Shown here piece after piece: positions 200-5,576 of a DNA stretch of 5,576 nt (positions are counted from its first letter, which is position 1; every line of letters starts with the position of its first letter). This stretch comes from Candidatus Vampirococcus lugosii (GTDB taxonomy: Bacteria > Patescibacteriota > Gracilibacteria > Absconditabacterales > Absconditicoccaceae), in assembly GCF_018420025.1 (NCBI RefSeq), contig NZ_JAEDAM010000066.1, forward strand, positions 1-5,576, in the 5' to 3' direction. Under the pieces are notes generated by a model that made no database searches, was not told the origin of the DNA, and saw nothing but the letters and a program-made list of their open reading frames with translations. A program made the position numbers and the translations under genes.

Positions 200-238
200 T
201 ATTATCTATAGATAATAAAGAAATTTTGTTTTTATAAA

Positions 239-288
239 ATTGAGAGATTTAGTGATTTAAATTACTTTATTTCTCAATTTTTTGTTTA
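239..288 (+). terminator. Rho-independent terminator of the upstream gene
   Basis: The outer stem ATTGAGAGAT (239-248) pairs with ATTTCTCAAT (269-278), including one G.U pair. The inner stem AGTGAT (251-256) pairs with ATTACT (261-266) around a TTAA loop. TTTTTTGTTT follows immediately (279-288). It lies 40 nt after the TAA at 197-199. Confidence 0.6.
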
Positions 289-452
289 AAAATTATGAAA
301 ATATTCAAAATGTAAAATCTTTTTTAAATTTTCAGATAAATATGAAATACTTTATAATTATAATTCTATTAATAATTCTAATATGTAATATAAACTAGTG
401 TTGTTTGCAGTAGTTGAATATATATTACATAATTGAAAATTTTTCCGAAATA

Positions 453-491
453 GAAATCAACAAAATCACCTACAGAATCAACAAAATTCAC
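453..491. repeat. Two direct copies of AATCAACAAAAT(C/T)CAC at a 21-bp period
   Basis: AATCAACAAAAT occurs exactly at 455-466 and 476-487. The flanks are similar (AGAAATC.../AGAATC..., ...CAC/...TCAC). The repeat lies in non-coding sequence. Confidence 0.6.
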
Positions 492-604
492 TCTTTTCTC
501 TAATTTAGGTGCAGAAGATTAGGATAATTTTCTATTGATTTAATATTTTTGTTATATATAATAATTTTGATTTTATTTTAAATATATAAAAAAATACAAA
601 AATA

Positions 605-866
605 ATGTATACAGATATAAAATCTTTTTCTTTGAAAAAAGGTTTTTTTATTTTAAAAAAATTCTGTTACTCATATTTGATATGGGGCTTTTGCAGATAA
701 TGAAACAGAAAATTATTTTAAAAAACTAAACTCAAGATTCTCTAAATGAATAAATCAATTAAAAAATTATTACAAAAAAACAAACTTTAAATTAGATAAA
801 AAATTTGATTTTGAATTTGAAAATAAAATTGAAAAGAAAAAAATTAAAGTAAAATTAAACTTTTAA
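605..866 (+). pseudogene. Possible decayed or frameshifted small ORF (~87 codons if one A is removed from an A7 run)
   Basis: ATG 605 opens MYTDIKSFSLKKGFFILKK..., which stops at TAA 698-700. The +1 frame is open for 70 codons (657-866, TAA 864-866) but has no ATG/GTG/TTG. That is unexpectedly long for sequence this TAA-prone. The two frames overlap at an A7 run (655-661). No family recognised. Confidence 0.25.
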
Positions 867-1109
867 TTATACCTGTAATATTGTCTAATTTTTATATTTT
901 TTATATTAAAAATATTTAAAAAACAAGAAACATTTTAAATATTTATTTTGATATAGAAAAAGAAGGTTTTATTGAATTTTTGGAAAGTGAGGATTTTATA
1001 AATTATATAAAATAATAAAAAAATCAATTTGCTGATTATAGTGTTTAAAAAGAAGAAATACTTAAAGATTTTATGCAAAAATAATTTCTAATTTTTTGTT
1101 AACAAGTTT

Positions 1110-1159
1110 TTGATTGAAAAAATTTAAATTTTATTTATTATAATTTATAATTTATAATT
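1110..1159 (+). promoter_or_regulatory. Candidate hsdM/operon promoter
   Basis: TTGAAA (1114-1119) is followed by TATTAT (1136-1141, 16-nt spacer) and TATAAT (1139-1144, 19-nt spacer). The hsdM ATG lies 13-33 nt downstream. AT-rich background makes hexamer matches weak evidence. Confidence 0.35.
1139..1159. repeat. Perfect tandem heptamer (TATAATT)x3
   Basis: TATAATT occurs at 1139-1145, 1146-1152 and 1153-1159. That gives three consecutive perfect -10-like hexamers ending 13 nt before the hsdM start. Confidence 0.9.
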
Positions 1160-1171
1160 AAATTTTAAAAA

Positions 1172-2683
1172 ATGACAAAAGAACAACTTTCAAGTGCGGA
1201 GATAAAAAAAGCTTGTGATATACTTAGAAGAGATGATTGAGTATGATCCAAAAATTATATTACTGAAATATCATGGATATTATTTTTAAAACTTTTTGAG
1301 GAAATAGAAAATATCTTTGATGATATATCAGCAAGTAAGATGCAAGATTATCATTTTGTAATAGAAGAAAAATATCATTGGTCATCTTGGGCTCATGATA
1401 AAGAATATAGAAAAAATCCCGAAAAGATGCTTGATTTTGTAAGATGAAAACTTTTCCCTTATTTGAAATTGCTTTCTGGAGATTATGGAACAAAAATTGC
1501 TCAAATATTTAATACTTTGGTGCAACCAAAAATCTTGAGTTGATATAATTTGATAGATGTTGTAGATATTGTAGATAAGATAAATAAAAAAGATTTTGTT
1601 GATTCCCACTTGCTTTCTCATGCTTATGAAGAGATACTTGCCAAGATGTGAAATGAATGATGATGGGCTTGAGAATATTATACTCCAAGGTCAGTAATTA
1701 AATTTTTGATACATACTCTTGATCCTCAAGTTTGACAAAAGATAAAAGATCCATTTACTTGAAGTTGATGATTTTTGGTAGAATCGTTTGAATATCTAAA
1801 ACAAAAATCTAATTGGGATACTTTATCTACAAAAGAACAAAAAAAACTTGCTGATAATAGTTTGTTTTGACAAGAGAAAAAACAAGAATGATATATCTTG
1901 TGAATGATGAACTTGATAACTCATGGAGTGTTAAAACCAAATATAAACCTTGCAAATACTTTTGGTCAAGATCTAAATAATATAACTTGAGAATATGATG
2001 TAATATTGACAAATCCCCCATTTTGAGGGAAAGAAGCATCTCAAGTATATAAACATTATGAATATCCTACATCAGCTACAGAATGACTTGCTCTTCAATA
2101 TATCATGAAAACTTTGAAAAATGGCTGAAAAGCTTGAGTAGTACTTCCAGACGGACAGATACTTTTTGCAACGGGACTTTTTGCAGATATAAGACAGAAA
2201 CTTTTTGAAAAAAATAAGTTAAAATATATCATAAGTTTACCAGCTTGAGTGTTTGCACAGATGTGAACAGGAATCAAGACAGTTTGTATGATATTTGAAA
2301 AATGATGAAATACAAAAAATGTAGTTTATTATAACCTAAATTGAAAATATACTAAGAAAAAATTACTTCCTCTTGAAGATATGGAATCTATACTTGAAGA
2401 TATGAAACAAGTTGATATTTTTGATAAAAATCTTGATGAAAAAGATATAGATGCTTTTAATATCGCTTGAGAAGATACAAATCAAAATTTTGATAGGTGG
2501 GTAGTACCTTTGGAATACTTTGAAAATAATAATTATGACATATCACCAAAAAATCCTTTTGAAAAAAAAGATATAGTTTTGTCAGTAGATGAAAATCTAT
2601 CTTTGATAAATAAAGGAAATACTTGATTTACACAAGAGTTTGAAAATCTTAAAAAACTTTTAAAAGATAATGATTTGGTATAA
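1172..2683 (+). CDS. hsdM: Type I restriction-modification system, DNA methyltransferase subunit HsdM (N6-adenine, gamma class), 503 aa under code 25
   Basis: ATG 1172 to TAA 2681-2683, with 27 in-frame TGA and no TAA/TAG. With TGA=Gly the translation shows several HsdM hallmarks. The N-terminus is HsdM_N-like (CDILRRDDGVGSKNYITEISWILFLKLF). AGEYYTPR is at 1667-1690 and SAM motif I DPFTGSGGF at 1748-1774. LFGQE...MMNLITHG is present, and catalytic motif IV NPPFGG is at 2012-2029. The C-terminal NNYDISPKN is typical of HsdM. Confidence 0.95.
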
Positions 2684-2720
2684 AAAAATACTTGTATTTG
2701 GATGGATTATTTTAATGAAA

Positions 2721-2829
2721 TGTCTTATAAAAAAATAATTATGTCTCATAATAAATGCCTTTATTATAAGTTAAAATAGAATTTTTAATAAAAATAATGT
2801 CCTATAAATACTTGAAAAGTGTCTTATAA
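2721..2829 (+). promoter_or_regulatory. Four direct TGTCYYATAA boxes in two pairs; candidate operator/promoter module upstream of the HTH-Fic gene
   Basis: The boxes are TGTCTTATAA 2721-2730, TGTCTCATAA 2742-2751, TGTCCTATAA 2798-2807 and TGTCTTATAA 2820-2829. Spacing within each pair is 21 and 22 bp, and the pair-to-pair period is 77-78 bp. Each pair is followed by TTATTATA(A)GTT(T)AAAA(A)TA. The full 10-mer is not seen elsewhere in the window. Confidence 0.5.
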
Positions 2830-2867
2830 ATTATATACTTATTATAGTTTAAAAATAAATTAAAAAA

Positions 2868-3917
2868 ATGAGCTTAATAAAAGAAAGAAGAAATAAAATA
2901 TTAGAGTATATCAAAAATCATGAAAAAGTTCAAATTTCTGATTTATCACATTTGATAGAAGATTTTCAAGTAGATAAAAAAACGATACAAAGAGACTTAA
3001 ACAAACTTGTAGAAGAAAAACAAATTATTAAAAAATGAACTTTAAAATCAACTTTTTATGAATTTTCCCATACAAACAAACTTTTTGAAAACATAGATAC
3101 TCAAAAATATTTTGATATTGCTTATCAAGATAGAGATGTTATAGAAAGTTTTAATTTTGATATTTTTGACATTTTAAAAACTGATATTTTTAATCAAAAA
3201 GAAAATGAAAAACTAGAAAATTTACAAAATCAATTTATTAAAAATTTTTCACAATATGATAGTCAAACCTTGATAAATAAAGAGTTTGAAAGAGTAATGA
3301 TAGAATTTTCTTGGAAATCATCTGCTATCGAGTGAAATACTTATTCTTTACTTGCAACAGAAGCACTACTTAAAGAAAATATACCTGATAGTACAAAAAC
3401 TCCAGAAGAAACACAGATGATACTAAATCATAAAGATGCTTTCAATGAGGTTATACAAAACAAAACTGCTTTTTATGATCTAAAATATCAAGATATAGAA
3501 TATATTCATAGTGTTTTGATAAAAAATCTATGAGTAAAAACAAATATAAGAAAATCACCAGTTTGAATAACTTGAACAAAATATAAACCTTTAGATAATG
3601 AATTTCAAATAAAAGAAGCTTTAGAAAAAACAGCTGAACTTATAAATTATAAAGAATCATTTTTTGAAAAATCATTTTTAATTTTAATATTGCTTGCATA
3701 TATACAAGCTTTTGAAGATGGGAACAAAAGAACTTCAAGGATGCTTTCAAATGCAATACTGTTAGCTTATGATAGTATTTCTTTATCTTATAGAGCAGTT
3801 GATATTATAGAGTATAAAAAAGCTATAATACTATTTTATGAACAAAATAATATTTCATTGTTAAAAAAAATATTTATTGAACAGTTTGAAGATTCTGTAA
3901 AAAATTATTTTAATTAA
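2868..3917 (+). CDS. Fic/DOC-fold protein with N-terminal DeoR-type winged-HTH and a non-canonical Fic motif, 349 aa under code 25
   Basis: ATG 2868 to TAA 3915-3917, with 5 in-frame TGA. The N-terminus KILEYIKNHEKVQISDLSHLIEDFQVDKKTIQRDLNKLVEEKQIIKKG resembles a DeoR HTH (TIRRDL-type recognition helix). SSAIEG (3318-3335) matches the Fic inhibitory motif (S/T)xxxE(G/N). IRKSPVGITGTKYKPL matches the conserved Fic core strand region. QAFEDGNKRTSR (3705-3740) aligns to HxFx(D/E)GNGRxxR. The track ORF 3690-3917 is only the tail of this gene. Confidence 0.9.
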
Positions 3918-3933
3918 TATAAAACTTTAAAAA

Positions 3934-4491
3934 ATGGAACAAAATATATGAGATTTGATTAAAAATGTTGAGTGGAGGGAGGTTAGTATATGGAATATAT
4001 TTGAACTTAAAAAAACAAGTTTTTGAAGTAAATTAGAAAAATATATTTCAAATGAAAAACAAAAATGATATATACCATATTTATCAAGTTGATTAGCAAA
4101 TAATCAAATATCTTGATATGTAAAAAAAGAAAAATTGAAAAATGAACAAATTTATAATTGAGGATGTCTATCTTGGACAGCAAATGCTACAGGAATGATT
4201 TTTTATAGAAATGAAGAAGAATTTGCAATAAAATCAGATGCTTGAGTATTGAAATTTAAAGAAGAAATTAGAAATGGTGATAAAGATAAAAAAGAAGATA
4301 AAGAAAGTGAAGAAATTTTATGATTTACATTAAGTGAAATAAAAAAATATTTTAATTACAAATATATTTATTATTCATTGATATGAGAATTTGAAAAAAA
4401 ATGATTTGATTGGGACAATAAAGCAACAAATGAAAAAGTTAAAAAAATAAGTTTTTTAATCCCTTACAAAAAACTGAAAACCTGACATTAA
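3934..4491 (+). CDS. hsdS: Type I R-M specificity subunit HsdS, 5' portion (TRD1), terminated prematurely by a frameshift
   Basis: ATG 3934 lies 16 nt after the Fic stop. There are 185 codons with 10 TGA, ending at TAA 4489-4491. The N-terminal VEWREVSIWNIFELKK and the body (YIPYLSSGLANNQISGYV..., GGCLSWTANATG) fit an HsdS target-recognition domain. The frame breaks exactly where the conserved IPYKNG.PD...QQ.I segment begins. Confidence 0.85.
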
Positions 4492-5395
4492 TGCCCAACA
4501 AAAAATAGCAAATTTTATTGATAATTGTTTTGATAAACTTGATAATGCAGATAAATATTTGCAGTTGATTTTTCAAAGTGTAAATCAAAAAAGATGATGA
4601 TGAGATGTGATTGATAAGAATTTTTTGAATACAAATTTTGAAGATATATTGAAAAAACATGATGAAAAGATAGCAAAACTTGAAAAATTAGAAAAAGATA
4701 AACAAAAAAGAAATTTTAAAGATACAGTGATGAAGTGAAACTTGATTGATAATCTATGGAAAAGTATACTTGAAGGGGTTTTTGATGAAGCATATTTGAA
4801 AGAAAAGTTTAATTGAGTAGAGTGGGAGAAGAATAAAAGCATAGAAAATATTATAGATAATAAAAAAAGAAAAAAATATAAATTTGATGTAATTAAAGAA
4901 AATGAAATTTTAAATTCTTGAAAATATCCAGTTATTTCACAATGAGATGATTATATTAATTGATATTCTACAAATGAAGAAAAATTATTTAAATGAGAAT
5001 TTCCTTTATTAGCTTTTTGAGATCATACATTTAATATTAAATATATTGATTTTGAATTTATACCATCATGAGATTGATTAAAGAATTTGTATTTCATTAA
5101 AAATATAAACTATAAATATGTATATTATTTTATATATATGCAAAAATGAGAAATAGAATGATATCAAAGACATTTTAAAATATTGAAATCTTTAAAAATC
5201 CCAATTCCTTACAAAAACTGATACCCTGACACTGAAACTCAACAAGAAATAGTAGCTATACTTGAAAAAGCATTTATATATTATCAAAGGATGAAAAATA
5301 AAGCTGAAAGCAATCAAAAATATCTACAAAATATGAGAAAATGAATACTTACAAATATATTTGAAACTGCAAATTTACTTTCTAATCAAAAATAA
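4460..5395 (+). CDS. hsdS: HsdS, 3' portion in the +1 frame (central conserved helices, TRD2, C-terminal conserved helix)
   Basis: Frame 2 is open from 4460 (after TAA 4457-4459) to TAA 5393-5395, with 17 TGA. There is no ATG before 4730. It reads ...NGKPDINAQQKIANFIDNCFDKL..., then TRD2 (VEWEKNKSIENII...GKYPVISQGDDYINGYS...LLAFGDHT...), then IPIPYKNGYPDTETQQEIVAILEKAF...RKGILTNIFE. Removing one A from the A6 run at 4468-4473 joins it to 3934-4473 as a single ~486-aa HsdS. Confidence 0.85.
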
Positions 5396-5397
5396 AA

Positions 5398-5576
5398 ATG
5401 TATACAGAAGCTGACACAAAATCAAAACATATAGAGCCAAATCTTAAAAAATCTTGATGGGATGAATCAAACATCGCAAGAGAATATAAGATAACAGCTG
5501 ATAGTATGGTAGTAGTATGAGAAGAATACCACACCAAAAACACTGCCAAATTTGCTGATTATGTTTTGAAGATAAA
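5398..5576 (+). CDS. hsdR: Type I R-M restriction/helicase subunit HsdR, N-terminal fragment (continues beyond window)
   Basis: ATG 5398 lies 2 nt after the hsdS stop. MYTEADTKSKHIEPNLKKSGWDESNIAREYKITADSMVVVGEEYHTKNTAKFADYVLKI matches the HSDR_N pattern (tEAdTr..lIdP.L...GW ... rE..it.g ... aDYvL). It contains 2 in-frame TGA, one giving the conserved GW. Confidence 0.85.

What the first reader, a model, noticed from the sequence alone, without database searches (positions are those of the whole stretch)
1172..5576. A wHTH-Fic gene is embedded inside the type I R-M operon between hsdM and hsdS
The gene order is hsdM, HTH-Fic, hsdS, hsdR, all on one strand. The gaps after the Fic gene are tiny (16 nt to hsdS; 2 nt from hsdS to hsdR), so the Fic-fold gene is almost certainly co-transcribed with the specificity and restriction subunits. 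Extra genes nested in type I loci are known from other systems, for example the anticodon nuclease PrrC in the EcoprrI locus and the rlo ORFs of Campylobacter hsd loci. Those act, or are proposed to act, as back-up suicide or defence modules released when phage neutralises the R-M complex. Here the passenger combines a DeoR-type DNA-binding head with a Fic fold, which suggests two readings. It could be a C-protein-like transcriptional timer for hsdS/hsdR. Alternatively it could be an R-M-coupled effector or sensor. In a code-25 CPR lineage with very few characterised defence systems, either would be new.
Basis: partly seen in the sequence, partly recalled or inferred. Interest (0 to 1): 0.8.

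Follow-up and report, generated by a model that had tools for sequence, protein, structure and literature searches.

The report
Self-regulated Fic cassette inside restriction operon
A gene for a DNA-binding protein with a Fic fold that lacks the usual catalytic histidine sits, with its own promoter and four binding-site repeats, between the methylase and specificity genes of a type I restriction-modification operon in the bacterium Vampirococcus lugosii; the cassette has landed in such operons many times, but most of its relatives live elsewhere and the specificity gene here is broken.

Summary
The gene order and gaps are as described: hsdM, 184 nt, HTH-Fic, 16 nt, hsdS, 2 nt, hsdR, read with code 25. 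However, hsdS is split by one extra A (A6 at 4468-4473). A related operon (L168) has A5, an intact hsdS and no Fic gene, so the Fic gene is an insertion.

The 349-aa protein belongs to a large, strongly conserved family. It has an N-terminal DeoR-type HTH and a class II Fic fold with the inhibitory-helix motif. Its active-site motif is QxFxDGNKRxxR in 156/159 loci: catalytic His replaced by Gln, with a Doc-like NKR.

Family-wide, the gene carries its own promoter overlapped by direct repeats 22 bp apart (83/140 upstream regions vs 2/132 downstream controls). The repeat sequence tracks the HTH recognition helix (ARI 0.90), which argues for autoregulation.

hsd genes or remnants abut the Fic gene in 20/79 close relatives and 0/80 distant ones (p=2e-7). 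The positions vary, but a short 6-16 nt gap always leads into the next hsd gene.

Best reading: a mobile, self-repressing passenger cassette that rewires hsdS/hsdR transcription. Fic/Doc genes in R-M operons, and HTH-Fic autoregulators (CccR, SoFic), are already known. I rate it a new variant of a known kind.

The parts
1172..2683 (+). hsdM, type I R-M methyltransferase subunit (503 aa, code 25, 27 in-frame TGA = Gly)
   Evidence: Pfam HsdM_N 4.7e-11 and N6_Mtase 3.7e-56. Motifs DPFTGSGGF and NPPFGG are intact. The 3' end is homologous to the hsdM of the Fic-less operon L168 up to window 2685.
2684..2867 (+). Control region of the Fic cassette: promoter plus four direct-repeat operators
   Evidence: ATGTCTTATAA with 0 or 1 mismatch occurs 4 times here and nowhere else in the window. 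The same architecture is found family-wide.
2720..2751 (+). Distal operator pair (copies at 2720-2730 and 2741-2751, 21 bp apart)
   Evidence: Homology between the window and L003 begins exactly at 2720.
2797..2829 (+). Proximal operator pair (copies at 2797-2807 and 2819-2829, 22 bp apart)
   Evidence: The second copy lies in the spacer between TTGAAA (2812-2817) and TATACT (2834-2839). 59/68 relatives have the same geometry.
2812..2839 (+). Sigma-70-like promoter of the Fic gene (TTGAAA, 16 nt, TATACT)
   Evidence: 10/12 match. A consensus match alone is weak evidence. The support comes from conservation of the position relative to the proximal operator.
2868..3917 (+). HTH-Fic(Gln) gene, 349 aa
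   Evidence: Pfam Fic and HTH_DeoR. PADLOC SoFic 9e-17 and PDC-S04 2e-15. More than 7,700 homologues. AlphaFold model of the 63%-identical P0086 has pLDDT 76 and pTM 0.78, and its best folds are the class II Fic proteins FICD, BT_2513, CdFic and SoFic.
2886..3032 (+). DeoR-type winged HTH (residues 7-55); recognition helix DKKTIQRDL at residues 36-44
   Evidence: The helix class matches the operator class one-to-one in 68 loci, ARI 0.90.
3318..3338 (+). Inhibitory-helix-type motif S151-S-A-I-E155-G156-N157 (G156 encoded by TGA)
   Evidence: Invariant in the alignments. Present in 159/159 loci. Aligns with the IEGNT of FICD/Fic-1.
3705..3740 (+). Degenerate Fic active-site motif Q280-A-F-E-D-G-N-K-R-T-S-R291
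   Evidence: Q aligns with the catalytic His of FICD. QxFxDGNKRxxR occurs in 156/159 loci. Weak match to DOC_P1 TIGR01550, below its cut-off.
3934..5395 (+). hsdS, specificity subunit, disrupted: ORF a 3934-4491 (185 aa), the remainder in the +1 frame to 5395
   Evidence: Removing one A gives a 486-aa protein that is 60% identical over its full length to the intact P0122 (PF01420). PDB EcoR124II S subunit 2.9e-9.
4468..4473 (+). A6 homopolymer that causes the hsdS frameshift (A5 in the orthologue and in the gene's own second repeat)
2686..4438 (+). Block absent from the orthologous Fic-less operon L168: Fic cassette plus a different hsdS TRD1
   Evidence: blastn of L168 against the window: 74% identity up to 2685 and 90% from 4439 onward, nothing between. 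L168 gene order is hsdM, 28 nt, hsdS, 2 nt, hsdR.
5398..5576 (+). hsdR 5' end (59 codons, runs off the contig)
   Evidence: NCBIfam EcoAI/FtnUII family R subunit 5.8e-11. Homologous to the HsdR of L168, L012 and L013.

Best explanation
The 349-aa gene is one copy of a mobile, self-contained cassette that was inserted into a pre-existing hsdM-hsdS-hsdR operon. The cassette consists of a sigma-70-like promoter, four lineage-specific direct-repeat operators, and a gene for an N-terminal DeoR-type HTH fused to a class II Fic fold.

Shown here:
- The cassette has clear boundaries and there is an orthologous empty site.
- The operator architecture is conserved family-wide and co-varies with the recognition helix.
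- The active-site motif has an invariant His-to-Gln change with a Doc-like NKR.
- The cassette sits in type I operons recurrently, at varied positions, always followed within 6-16 nt by an hsd gene.

Inferred:
- The protein binds its four operators, probably as an oligomer on sites two helical turns apart, and represses its own promoter.
- hsdS and hsdR follow without room for an intergenic promoter, so they are transcribed from this autoregulated promoter and from whatever read-through from hsdM passes the bound repressor. The cassette therefore imposes its own feedback on the downstream restriction genes.
- The Fic domain cannot AMPylate by the canonical mechanism, yet it is the most conserved part of the protein. 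I take it to be the selected function: a ligand- or target-binding module, or an unconventional enzyme, held shut by the intramolecular inhibitory Glu. On this view it acts on a conserved cellular target or senses a nucleotide, as in stand-alone HTH-Fic modules such as SoFic and CccR.
- Its presence in R-M operons reflects the known tendency of defence passengers to settle at hsd gene junctions. It is not a dedicated partnership.

In this particular genome the R-M part is probably inactive, because hsdS is frameshifted.
For: Insertion:
- L168 carries the orthologous operon without Fic. Homology breaks at 2685 and resumes at 4439.
- L003 shares only 2720-4044 with the window, that is, operators, Fic and 111 nt of hsdS.

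Autoregulation:
- Four copies of ATGTCTTATAA occur only at 2720-2829.
- 10-mer pairs exactly 22 bp apart occur in 38/69 and 45/71 upstream regions, against 1/63 and 1/69 downstream controls and 0/69 and 1/71 shuffles.
- 59/68 proximal operators lie between -35-like and -10-like hexamers.
- Operator class tracks recognition-helix class with ARI 0.90. This includes a single-base operator change paired with a single E-to-A helix change.
- No operator copies lie upstream of hsdM in any hsd locus.
- Experimental precedent: CccR and SoFic bind their own promoters (PMC9755527; bioRxiv 10.64898/2026.07.09.737422).

Fic domain:
- Pfam and fold matches. Q aligns to the catalytic His.
- QxFxDGNKRxxR in 156/159 loci and the inhibitory motif in 159/159.
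- The Fic part is more conserved than the HTH part.

Passenger status:
- hsd linkage in 20/79 close and 0/80 distant relatives, p=2e-7.
- At least four arrangements: M-Fic-S-R, S-Fic-R, S-Fic-M, Fic-R remnant-M, spread over at least five operator classes.
- Other tightly coupled downstream genes are unrelated, including DgkA, a pyrophosphatase, SNase-like nucleases and a glycosyltransferase.
- The downstream gap is 30 nt or less in 24/51 cases, against 3/51 upstream.
- The hsdS-hsdR junction has been proposed as a hotspot for defence insertions (PMC12255303).
Against: - There is no experimental evidence for DNA binding, repression, transcript structure or any Fic activity.
- Co-variation of operator and helix is partly confounded by shared ancestry. 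Partial rank correlations did not separate the HTH from the Fic domain.
- The promoter call rests on consensus hexamers in a 15-20% GC region, where such matches are common (48 found, 49.5 expected).
- A regulator that controls only itself makes little sense, so the output function is inferred rather than seen.
- The consistent placement directly upstream of hsdR in most hsd-linked loci could mean a dedicated control role rather than passive passenger status.
- hsd detection used Patescibacteria-derived queries, so hsd genes in the Bacteroidota loci might be under-detected, although 24-25%-identical HsdM proteins were picked up.
Confidence: 0.6

Rival explanations
1. Dedicated controller of restriction. 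The HTH-Fic protein is a C-protein-like or RptR-like regulator whose purpose in these loci is to gate hsdR (here hsdS and hsdR) expression. The Fic fold serves as a non-catalytic sensor of a nucleotide or of infection state and switches the repressor on and off.
For: - In most hsd-linked loci the gene sits directly (6-8 nt) upstream of hsdR and after hsdM and hsdS (L012, L013, L100, L110, L119, L142). That is the wiring of C-R operons.
- Two operator pairs, one distal and one overlapping the promoter, resemble the two-site logic of C-boxes.
- The catalytic His is lost while the phosphate-binding residues are retained, which suits a binding role.
- Type I operons are now known to have dedicated small repressors that bind direct repeats (RptR, PMC12255303).
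Against: - 75% of close and 100% of distant family members have no hsd neighbour yet keep the same operators and promoter.
- Their downstream genes are unrelated or sit on the other strand.
- In the window the gene precedes hsdS, and in L009 it precedes hsdM, so methylation would be gated too.
- The Fic domain is more conserved than the HTH, which is unusual for a mere sensor appendage.
- No operator copies occur at other hsd promoters.
Confidence: 0.2
2. Second-line suicide effector coupled to the R-M complex (PrrC-like). The Fic-fold protein is held inactive by the intact type I enzyme. It is released to arrest the cell when a phage disables restriction, forming one layer of a multi-layer defence.
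For: - It occupies the same place (between hsdS and hsdR) as prrC in EcoprrI and darTG2 in EPEC (PMC3710099; PMC12255303).
- Fic/Doc toxins next to R-M and PrrC-like genes were proposed as a three-level defence (PMC3710099).
- PADLOC SoFic and PDC-S04 models match.
- The homologue operons carry other defence-type passengers: AAA_15/AAA_21 ATPase, Schlafen/AlbA_2 and an RNase H-like protein.
- In L134 a canonical Bro-N/Fic toxin follows directly.
Against: - The catalytic His, which is essential in AMPylating Fic proteins and in Doc (established knowledge of those families), is Gln in 156/159 members.
- Most members occur without any R-M genes, so they cannot depend on an R-M complex.
- The inhibitory Glu is intramolecular, so no partner is needed for silencing.
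- Here hsdS is broken, yet the Fic gene is intact in two assemblies. That argues against dependence on a functional complex, although it would fit an addiction-type survivor.
Confidence: 0.15
3. Decaying locus with no current function. The arrangement is a by-product of recombination that swapped hsdS TRD1 and dragged the Fic cassette along. The operon is on its way to loss, and the linkage carries no functional meaning in this genome.
For: - hsdS is frameshifted about 30 nt beyond the right recombination junction.
- Six relatives retain only short hsd remnants beside Fic.
- L003 keeps a 37-aa hsdS stub.
Against: - hsdM, the Fic gene and the hsdR start are intact.
- The frameshift is a single base in a homopolymer and could be reversible.
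- The Fic family is under strong purifying selection.
- 14 relatives have apparently full-length hsd genes abutting Fic.
Confidence: 0.05

Closest known systems
CccR (Yersinia pseudotuberculosis) and SoFic (Shewanella oneidensis): class II Fic proteins with a winged-HTH domain
   Same: - A Fic fold and a DNA-binding domain in one chain.
- They bind their own promoters. CccR is a shown autorepressor (PMC9755527), and SoFic binds the first 100 bp upstream of its start codon (bioRxiv 10.64898/2026.07.09.737422).
- Both have an N-terminal inhibitory-helix Glu.
- SoFic is a single-gene phage-defence system, and the PADLOC SoFic model matches this protein.
   Different: - The HTH here is N-terminal and DeoR-type, not C-terminal.
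- The catalytic His is Gln and the second Gly is Lys, so canonical AMPylation of FtsZ or EF-Tu is not expected.
- Sequence relatedness is confined to the Fic core (Foldseek TM about 0.47, 14% identity to SoFic).
Fic/Doc-like toxins in R-M operons (Anantharaman et al. 2013, PMC3710099); PrrC in EcoprrI; DarTG2 in the EPEC type I system (PMC12255303)
   Same: - A passenger gene nested between hsd genes on the same strand.
- The commonest position of this family, between hsdS and hsdR, is the position of prrC and darTG2.
- The homologue operons carry further defence-type passengers.
   Different: - No ABC-ATPase/HEPN or DarT/DarG domains.
- The Fic motif is degenerate.
- The cassette carries its own regulator domain and operators.
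- Most family members are not in R-M operons.
Controller (C) proteins of type II R-M systems, and RptR of type I systems
   Same: - A DNA-binding protein encoded directly upstream of restriction genes.
- Multiple operator sites at its own promoter (RptR binds three direct repeats).
- Expected feedback control of the downstream genes.
   Different: - C proteins and RptR are small (about 80 aa) stand-alone HTH proteins, and RptR is strongly hsd-associated (54/117).
- This protein is 349 aa with a Fic fold and a DeoR-type HTH, and its hsd association is 25% in one clade only.
- In the window it precedes hsdS as well as hsdR.
Doc toxin of phage P1 (Phd-Doc)
   Same: - The active-site loop has the Doc-type N-K-R-T sequence instead of N-G-R.
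- Weak match to TIGR01550.
   Different: - Doc keeps the catalytic His, is about 125 aa, has no HTH or inhibitory helix, and is neutralised by a separate Phd antitoxin.
- The match is below the family cut-off (20.5 vs 38.65 bits).

Membership tests
Fic/Fido superfamily (PF02661) | Fic fold | tested here: met
   Pfam Fic 2.8e-13, above the cut-off. The model of a 63%-identical homologue matches FICD, BT_2513, CdFic and SoFic.
Fic/Fido superfamily (PF02661) | Canonical catalytic motif HxFx(D/E)GNGRxxR with the catalytic His | tested here: not met
   The motif is QAFEDGNKRTSR. Q aligns to the His of FICD. Q is present in 158 of the 159 loci compared, and one locus lacks the motif.
Class II Fic proteins (intramolecular N-terminal inhibitory helix) | (S/T)xxxE(G/N) motif N-terminal to the Fic core | tested here: met
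   S151-S-A-I-E155-G156 is invariant and aligns with the IEGNT of FICD/Fic-1. The model is of low confidence in this segment (pLDDT below 50 at 150-162), so the helix position itself is not verified.
Class II Fic proteins | AMPylation or deAMPylation activity | not testable with these tools
   Needs biochemistry. The His-to-Gln change argues against the canonical mechanism.
Doc toxins (TIGR01550 DOC_P1) | HxFx(D/N)(A/G)NKR motif, a score above the family cut-off, and an adjacent Phd-type antitoxin | tested here: not met
   NKR is present but His is absent. 20.5 bits against a 38.65 cut-off. There is no small upstream antitoxin gene: the neighbours are hsdM and hsdS.
SoFic single-gene defence system (PADLOC PDLC03963) | Fic core followed by a C-terminal wHTH, with a catalytic His | tested here: not met
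   The model matches residues 126-302 only (9e-17). The HTH is N-terminal and the His is absent.
SoFic single-gene defence system | Protects against phage | not testable with these tools
   Needs phage-challenge assays.
DeoR-family transcription regulators | N-terminal HTH_DeoR domain | tested here: met
   PF08220 1.6e-8, residues 7-55. Weak matches to GlpR, SrlR and AgaR N-termini.
DeoR-family transcription regulators | C-terminal DeoRC sugar-phosphate-binding effector domain | tested here: not met
   The C-terminal part is a Fic fold. NCBIfam matches cover only the first 56 residues or so.
Controller (C) proteins of R-M systems | Small Xre-type HTH protein | tested here: not met
   349 aa, DeoR-type HTH plus Fic.
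Controller (C) proteins of R-M systems | Gene directly upstream of the restriction gene, with operators at its own promoter | tested here: met
   16 nt to hsdS-hsdR here, and 6-8 nt to hsdR in L012, L013, L100, L110, L119 and L142. Four operators at 2720-2829. The operators are direct repeats rather than palindromic C-boxes.
Controller (C) proteins of R-M systems | Delays or limits restriction relative to methylation | not testable with these tools
   Needs expression time courses. In this window hsdS is also downstream, which argues against a delay that spares methylation.
PrrC/RloC-type R-M-embedded anticodon nucleases | ABC-ATPase plus a HEPN nuclease domain | tested here: not met
   Only HTH_DeoR and Fic were found.
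Type I R-M system (hsdM, hsdS, hsdR) | All three subunits present and intact | tested here: not met
   hsdM is intact. hsdS is frameshifted. Only 59 codons of hsdR lie in the window.

The most novel reading that the evidence does not exclude
The HTH-Fic(Gln) family is a pseudoenzyme-based one-component switch. The Fic pocket, stripped of its catalytic His but keeping its phosphate-binding residues and inhibitory Glu, senses a nucleotide or an infection-derived signal. It thereby releases the HTH from four operators, giving a burst of the genes behind it. In type I operons this makes it the first controller of hsdR expression that is built on a Fic fold, functionally parallel to C proteins and RptR but ligand-gated.
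Probability: 0.2. Interest if true: 0.8.

Novelty: new variant of a known kind. Interest (0 to 1): 0.5.

Why it matters
- Type I R-M operons are increasingly seen as landing pads for other defence genes, and how those composite loci are regulated is largely unknown.
- This family offers a compact test case. It is a single protein with a readable operator code: recognition helix and repeat change together across lineages. It also has an invariant His-to-Gln 'dead' Fic site under strong selection, and there are natural operons with and without the insert.
- It could show what a non-AMPylating Fic fold does.
- It could also show whether passenger cassettes take over control of restriction genes.
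- Several relatives (for example L012 and L013) use the standard code, so experiments do not need recoding.

Tried and rejected
- Table 11 ORF calling gave only fragments, so I re-called ORFs with tables 25 and 4.
- Intrinsic terminator scan: none found. This is uninformative in a 22% GC genome.
- Rfam and tRNA scans of the window: nothing.
- Pfam on the frameshift-corrected HsdS gave no hit even at E=10. Identity was established through homologues and the PDB instead.
I modelled the hsd-embedded homologue P0086 instead.
- Neighbour clustering over 88 loci showed no dominant partner family. Generic ABC, response-regulator and EF-G clusters were dismissed as housekeeping.
- Partial rank correlation of operator distance with HTH versus Fic-domain distance did not discriminate (0.52 vs 0.47). 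The categorical helix/operator table was more informative.
- Phage and plasmid collections: no close relatives in phages, and one 48%-identical copy on a Bacteroides plasmid. IMG/VR: no relatives.
- Operator pairs in viral contigs: 5 matches, about the number expected by chance for 18 specified bases (my estimate), so not pursued.
- Short-remnant regex added only three loci. I rejected the idea that most solitary copies are relics of decayed R-M operons.
- One paper listed as mentioning Fic (PMC12455610) had no such mention in its main text.

Full report
**What is in the window.** The 5,576-nt window is 22% GC, and under table 11 it yields only fragments. Under table 25 or 4 it resolves into four + strand genes. 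TGA falls exactly at the glycines of the HsdM motifs DPFT-G-S-G-G-F and NPPF-G-G, so the code is 25. A 100% protein match on a 5,576-bp NCBI contig names the source as Candidatus Vampirococcus lugosii. This is an Absconditabacteria epibiont whose genome paper counts three type I systems but does not mention a Fic gene (PMC8080830).

The genes are:
- hsdM at 1172-2683 (HsdM_N + N6_Mtase);
- a 349-aa HTH_DeoR + Fic gene at 2868-3917;
- hsdS at 3934-5395;
- the first 59 codons of an EcoAI-type hsdR from 5398.

**The hsdS gene is broken.** Frame 1 ends at 4489-4491 after 185 aa, and the gene continues in the +1 frame. The cause is one extra A in the run at 4468-4473. The gene's own second conserved repeat has A5, and so does the intact 454-aa orthologue in L168. 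A contig assembled independently from run SRR13241709 (L001) is 99.95% identical over 4,084 bp with no gaps and carries the same A6. Removing one A gives a 486-aa protein that is 60% identical over its full length to an intact PF01420 protein. Its TRD2 matches the EcoR124II S subunit in the PDB at 2.9e-9, although Pfam itself gave no direct hit.

**The Fic gene is an insertion.** L168, from a related code-25 organism, has hsdM, 28 nt, hsdS, 2 nt, hsdR with no Fic gene. DNA homology with the window runs to 2685 (74%) and resumes at 4439 (90%). The block 2686-4438, which holds the Fic cassette and a different TRD1, is therefore specific to the window lineage. A 78%-identical relative (L003) shares only 2720-4044 with the window. 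That span starts at the first operator repeat and ends 111 nt into hsdS, after which L003 continues with unrelated ATPase and C5-methylase genes.

**The protein.**
- More than 7,700 homologues were found, the best 120 of them 62-78% identical across many Patescibacteria. A profile search counts 378 clusters at 50% identity with E of 1e-30 or lower.
- Alignments show the Fic part to be more conserved than the HTH part.
- The active-site motif is QxFxDGNKRxxR in 156 of 159 non-redundant loci. A profile alignment to FICD places the Gln on the catalytic His and the family's IEGNT on FICD's inhibitory-helix IEGNT. The inhibitory motif is present in 159/159 loci.
- The N-K-R-T loop resembles Doc, but the Doc model scores below its cut-off.
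- An AlphaFold model of the 63%-identical, hsd-embedded homologue P0086 (pLDDT 76, pTM 0.78) matches class II Fic structures.
- PADLOC matches the Fic core of SoFic and the candidate PDC-S04.

**A conserved, co-evolving operator.** The 184-nt gap upstream of the gene holds four copies of ATGTCTTATAA (0 or 1 mismatch), at 2720, 2741, 2797 and 2819. There are none elsewhere in the window. The last copy lies between TTGAAA (2812-2817) and TATACT (2834-2839). Relatives have the same layout whatever their genomic context: two pairs of direct repeats, each pair 21-22 bp apart.

| Measure | Close clade | Distant clade |
|---|---|---|
| Upstream regions with a 10-mer pair exactly 22 bp apart | 38/69 | 45/71 |
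| Same, downstream control regions | 1/63 | 1/69 |
| Same, shuffled sequences | 0/69 | 1/71 |

(All.) A 53-bp spacing occurs in 33/69 of the close clade. In 59/68 loci the proximal operator sits between -35-like and -10-like hexamers.

The repeat sequence differs between lineages and tracks the HTH recognition helix one-to-one:

| Operator | Recognition helix | Loci |
|---|---|---|
| TGACGCAAT | SRETITRDL | 31 |
| TGCAGCAAT | ERTTLQRDL | 8 |
| TGTCGC.. | mostly DRKTLQRDL | 13 |
| TGTTACAAT | ER[MI]T[VI]IRDL | 3 |
| TGTCTTATA | DKKTIQRDL | 3 (the window and two relatives) |

A single-base operator variant (TGATACAAT) is paired with a single E-to-A change in the helix. The adjusted Rand index is 0.90. 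Operator copies do not occur upstream of hsdM in any hsd-linked locus. This is the signature of a repressor and its own operator. The experimental precedents are CccR and SoFic, which bind their own promoters (PMC9755527; bioRxiv 10.64898/2026.07.09.737422), and a Coxiella Fic whose activity is induced by DNA binding (PMC10628234).

**Linkage to hsd genes.** I examined 167 loci from reference genomes, metagenomes and exact-match contigs.
- Among 79 non-redundant close relatives (56% identity or more), 17 have an hsd gene or remnant directly abutting the Fic gene by tblastn. The count rises to 20 when a divergent hsdR and short remnants are included. Among 80 distant relatives, mostly Bacteroidota, none do (Fisher p=2e-7).
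- Size-matched control regions gave 0/99 for the remnant motifs.
- The arrangements differ: hsdM-Fic-hsdS-hsdR (window), hsdS-Fic-hsdR (the commonest: L012, L013, L100, L110, L119, L142 and others), hsdS-Fic-hsdM (L009), and Fic-hsdR remnant-hsdM (L126). They are spread over at least five operator classes and at least two divergent type I families (L130 and L134).
- In every case a 126-194 nt control region precedes Fic and only 6-16 nt separate it from the next hsd gene.
- More generally, in the close clade the downstream gene is within 30 nt in 24/51 same-strand cases, against 3/51 upstream.
- About half of those tightly coupled partners are hsd genes. The rest are unrelated: SNase-like nucleases, DgkA, a pyrophosphatase, a glycosyltransferase, small unknowns, and in L134 a Bro-N protein with a canonical Fic motif.
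- The hsd operons of L012 and L013 also carry other passengers: an RNase H-like protein, Schlafen/AlbA_2 and an AAA_15/AAA_21 ATPase.

**Interpretation.** The evidence best fits a mobile, self-repressing cassette that has repeatedly settled at hsd gene junctions. It then places the downstream hsd genes under its own autoregulated promoter. Its Fic domain cannot work as a canonical AMPylase, yet it is the most strongly conserved part and hence the likely selected function. What it binds or does is inferred, not shown.

A dedicated C-protein-like controller of hsdR remains possible and is favoured by the commonest arrangement. It is weakened by the many non-hsd contexts that share the same circuit. 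A PrrC-like suicide effector is weakened by the missing His and by independence from R-M genes.

**What is already known.**
- Fic/Doc-like toxins in R-M operons, and the idea of layered defence, were set out in 2013 (PMC3710099). A Fic/DOC gene and an HTH protein beside a type I system were noted in Corynebacterium (PMC5379612).
- RptR is a direct-repeat-binding repressor genetically tied to type I systems. The paper describing it suggests the hsdS-hsdR junction may be a recombination hotspot for defence insertions (PMC12255303).
- HTH-Fic autoregulators are known (CccR, SoFic).

What I did not find described is this particular family: an N-terminal DeoR-type HTH, invariant His-to-Gln with Doc-like NKR, a four-site direct-repeat operator, and recurrent nesting in Patescibacteria type I operons. 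I therefore rate it a new variant of a known kind, of moderate interest. It is not specific to code-25 lineages.

Noticed in passing
window 4468-4473: The hsdS frameshift lies in an A6 homopolymer (A5 in the orthologue L168 and in the gene's own second repeat), about 30 nt beyond the recombination junction at 4439. It could be a phase-variable switch, a by-product of the recombination, or a fixed inactivating mutation.
   Followed up: partly
window 3934-4438 vs L168 544-954: TRD1 of hsdS has no DNA homology to the orthologue, while everything from the central conserved region onward is 90% identical. This is a target-recognition-domain swap that came in together with the Fic cassette.
   Followed up: partly
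window 200-1171: A 972-nt stretch of 15% GC lies between the end of an upstream gene (2-199) and hsdM. It has no ORF of 40 aa or more under code 25, no tRNA or Rfam match, only short AT-rich tandem repeats, and no homology to any other locus fetched except the same-organism contig L001.
   Followed up: partly
L134 11057-11962: Inside a type I operon, the HTH-Fic(Gln) gene is followed after 9 nt by a Bro-N-like protein with a canonical Fic motif (HPFMEGNGRSTR). That pairs a 'dead' and a 'live' Fic gene, which might hint at an antitoxin-like or regulatory relation.
   Followed up: no
L012 7208-8672; L013 3304-6900: The hsd operons that host the Fic gene in Kuenenbacteria and Moraniibacteriota also carry other passengers between hsdM and hsdS: an RNase H-like protein, a Schlafen/AlbA_2 protein with an HTH, an AAA_15/AAA_21 ATPase, and proteins of unknown function.
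   Followed up: partly
L100 2597, L110 10568, L119 9700: In the TGACGCAAT operator class, a further copy of the operator lies inside the Fic coding sequence, about 565 nt after the start, at the same relative position in three loci.
   Followed up: no
L012 9960-9991; L013 8228-8259: In these relatives the -10-like hexamer ends only 6-7 nt before the ATG, which suggests a leaderless Fic mRNA. In the window the -10 is 28 nt upstream of the ATG.
   Followed up: no
window 3333-3335 and public protein entries P0001, P0002, P0005, P0013 and others: Public protein collections hold code-25 members of this family translated with Trp at TGA (for example IEWNTYSLL instead of IEGNTYSLL). This includes the Gly of the inhibitory-helix motif, and such entries would mislead motif analyses.
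   Followed up: partly
L003 1275-1385: The 78%-identical relative keeps a 37-aa stub of the window-type hsdS start right after its Fic gene. It is followed by an AAA_14/DUF4143 ATPase, an AAA_13 ATPase and a C5 DNA methylase. AAA_14/DUF4143 genes recur near the family in 7 loci.
   Followed up: partly
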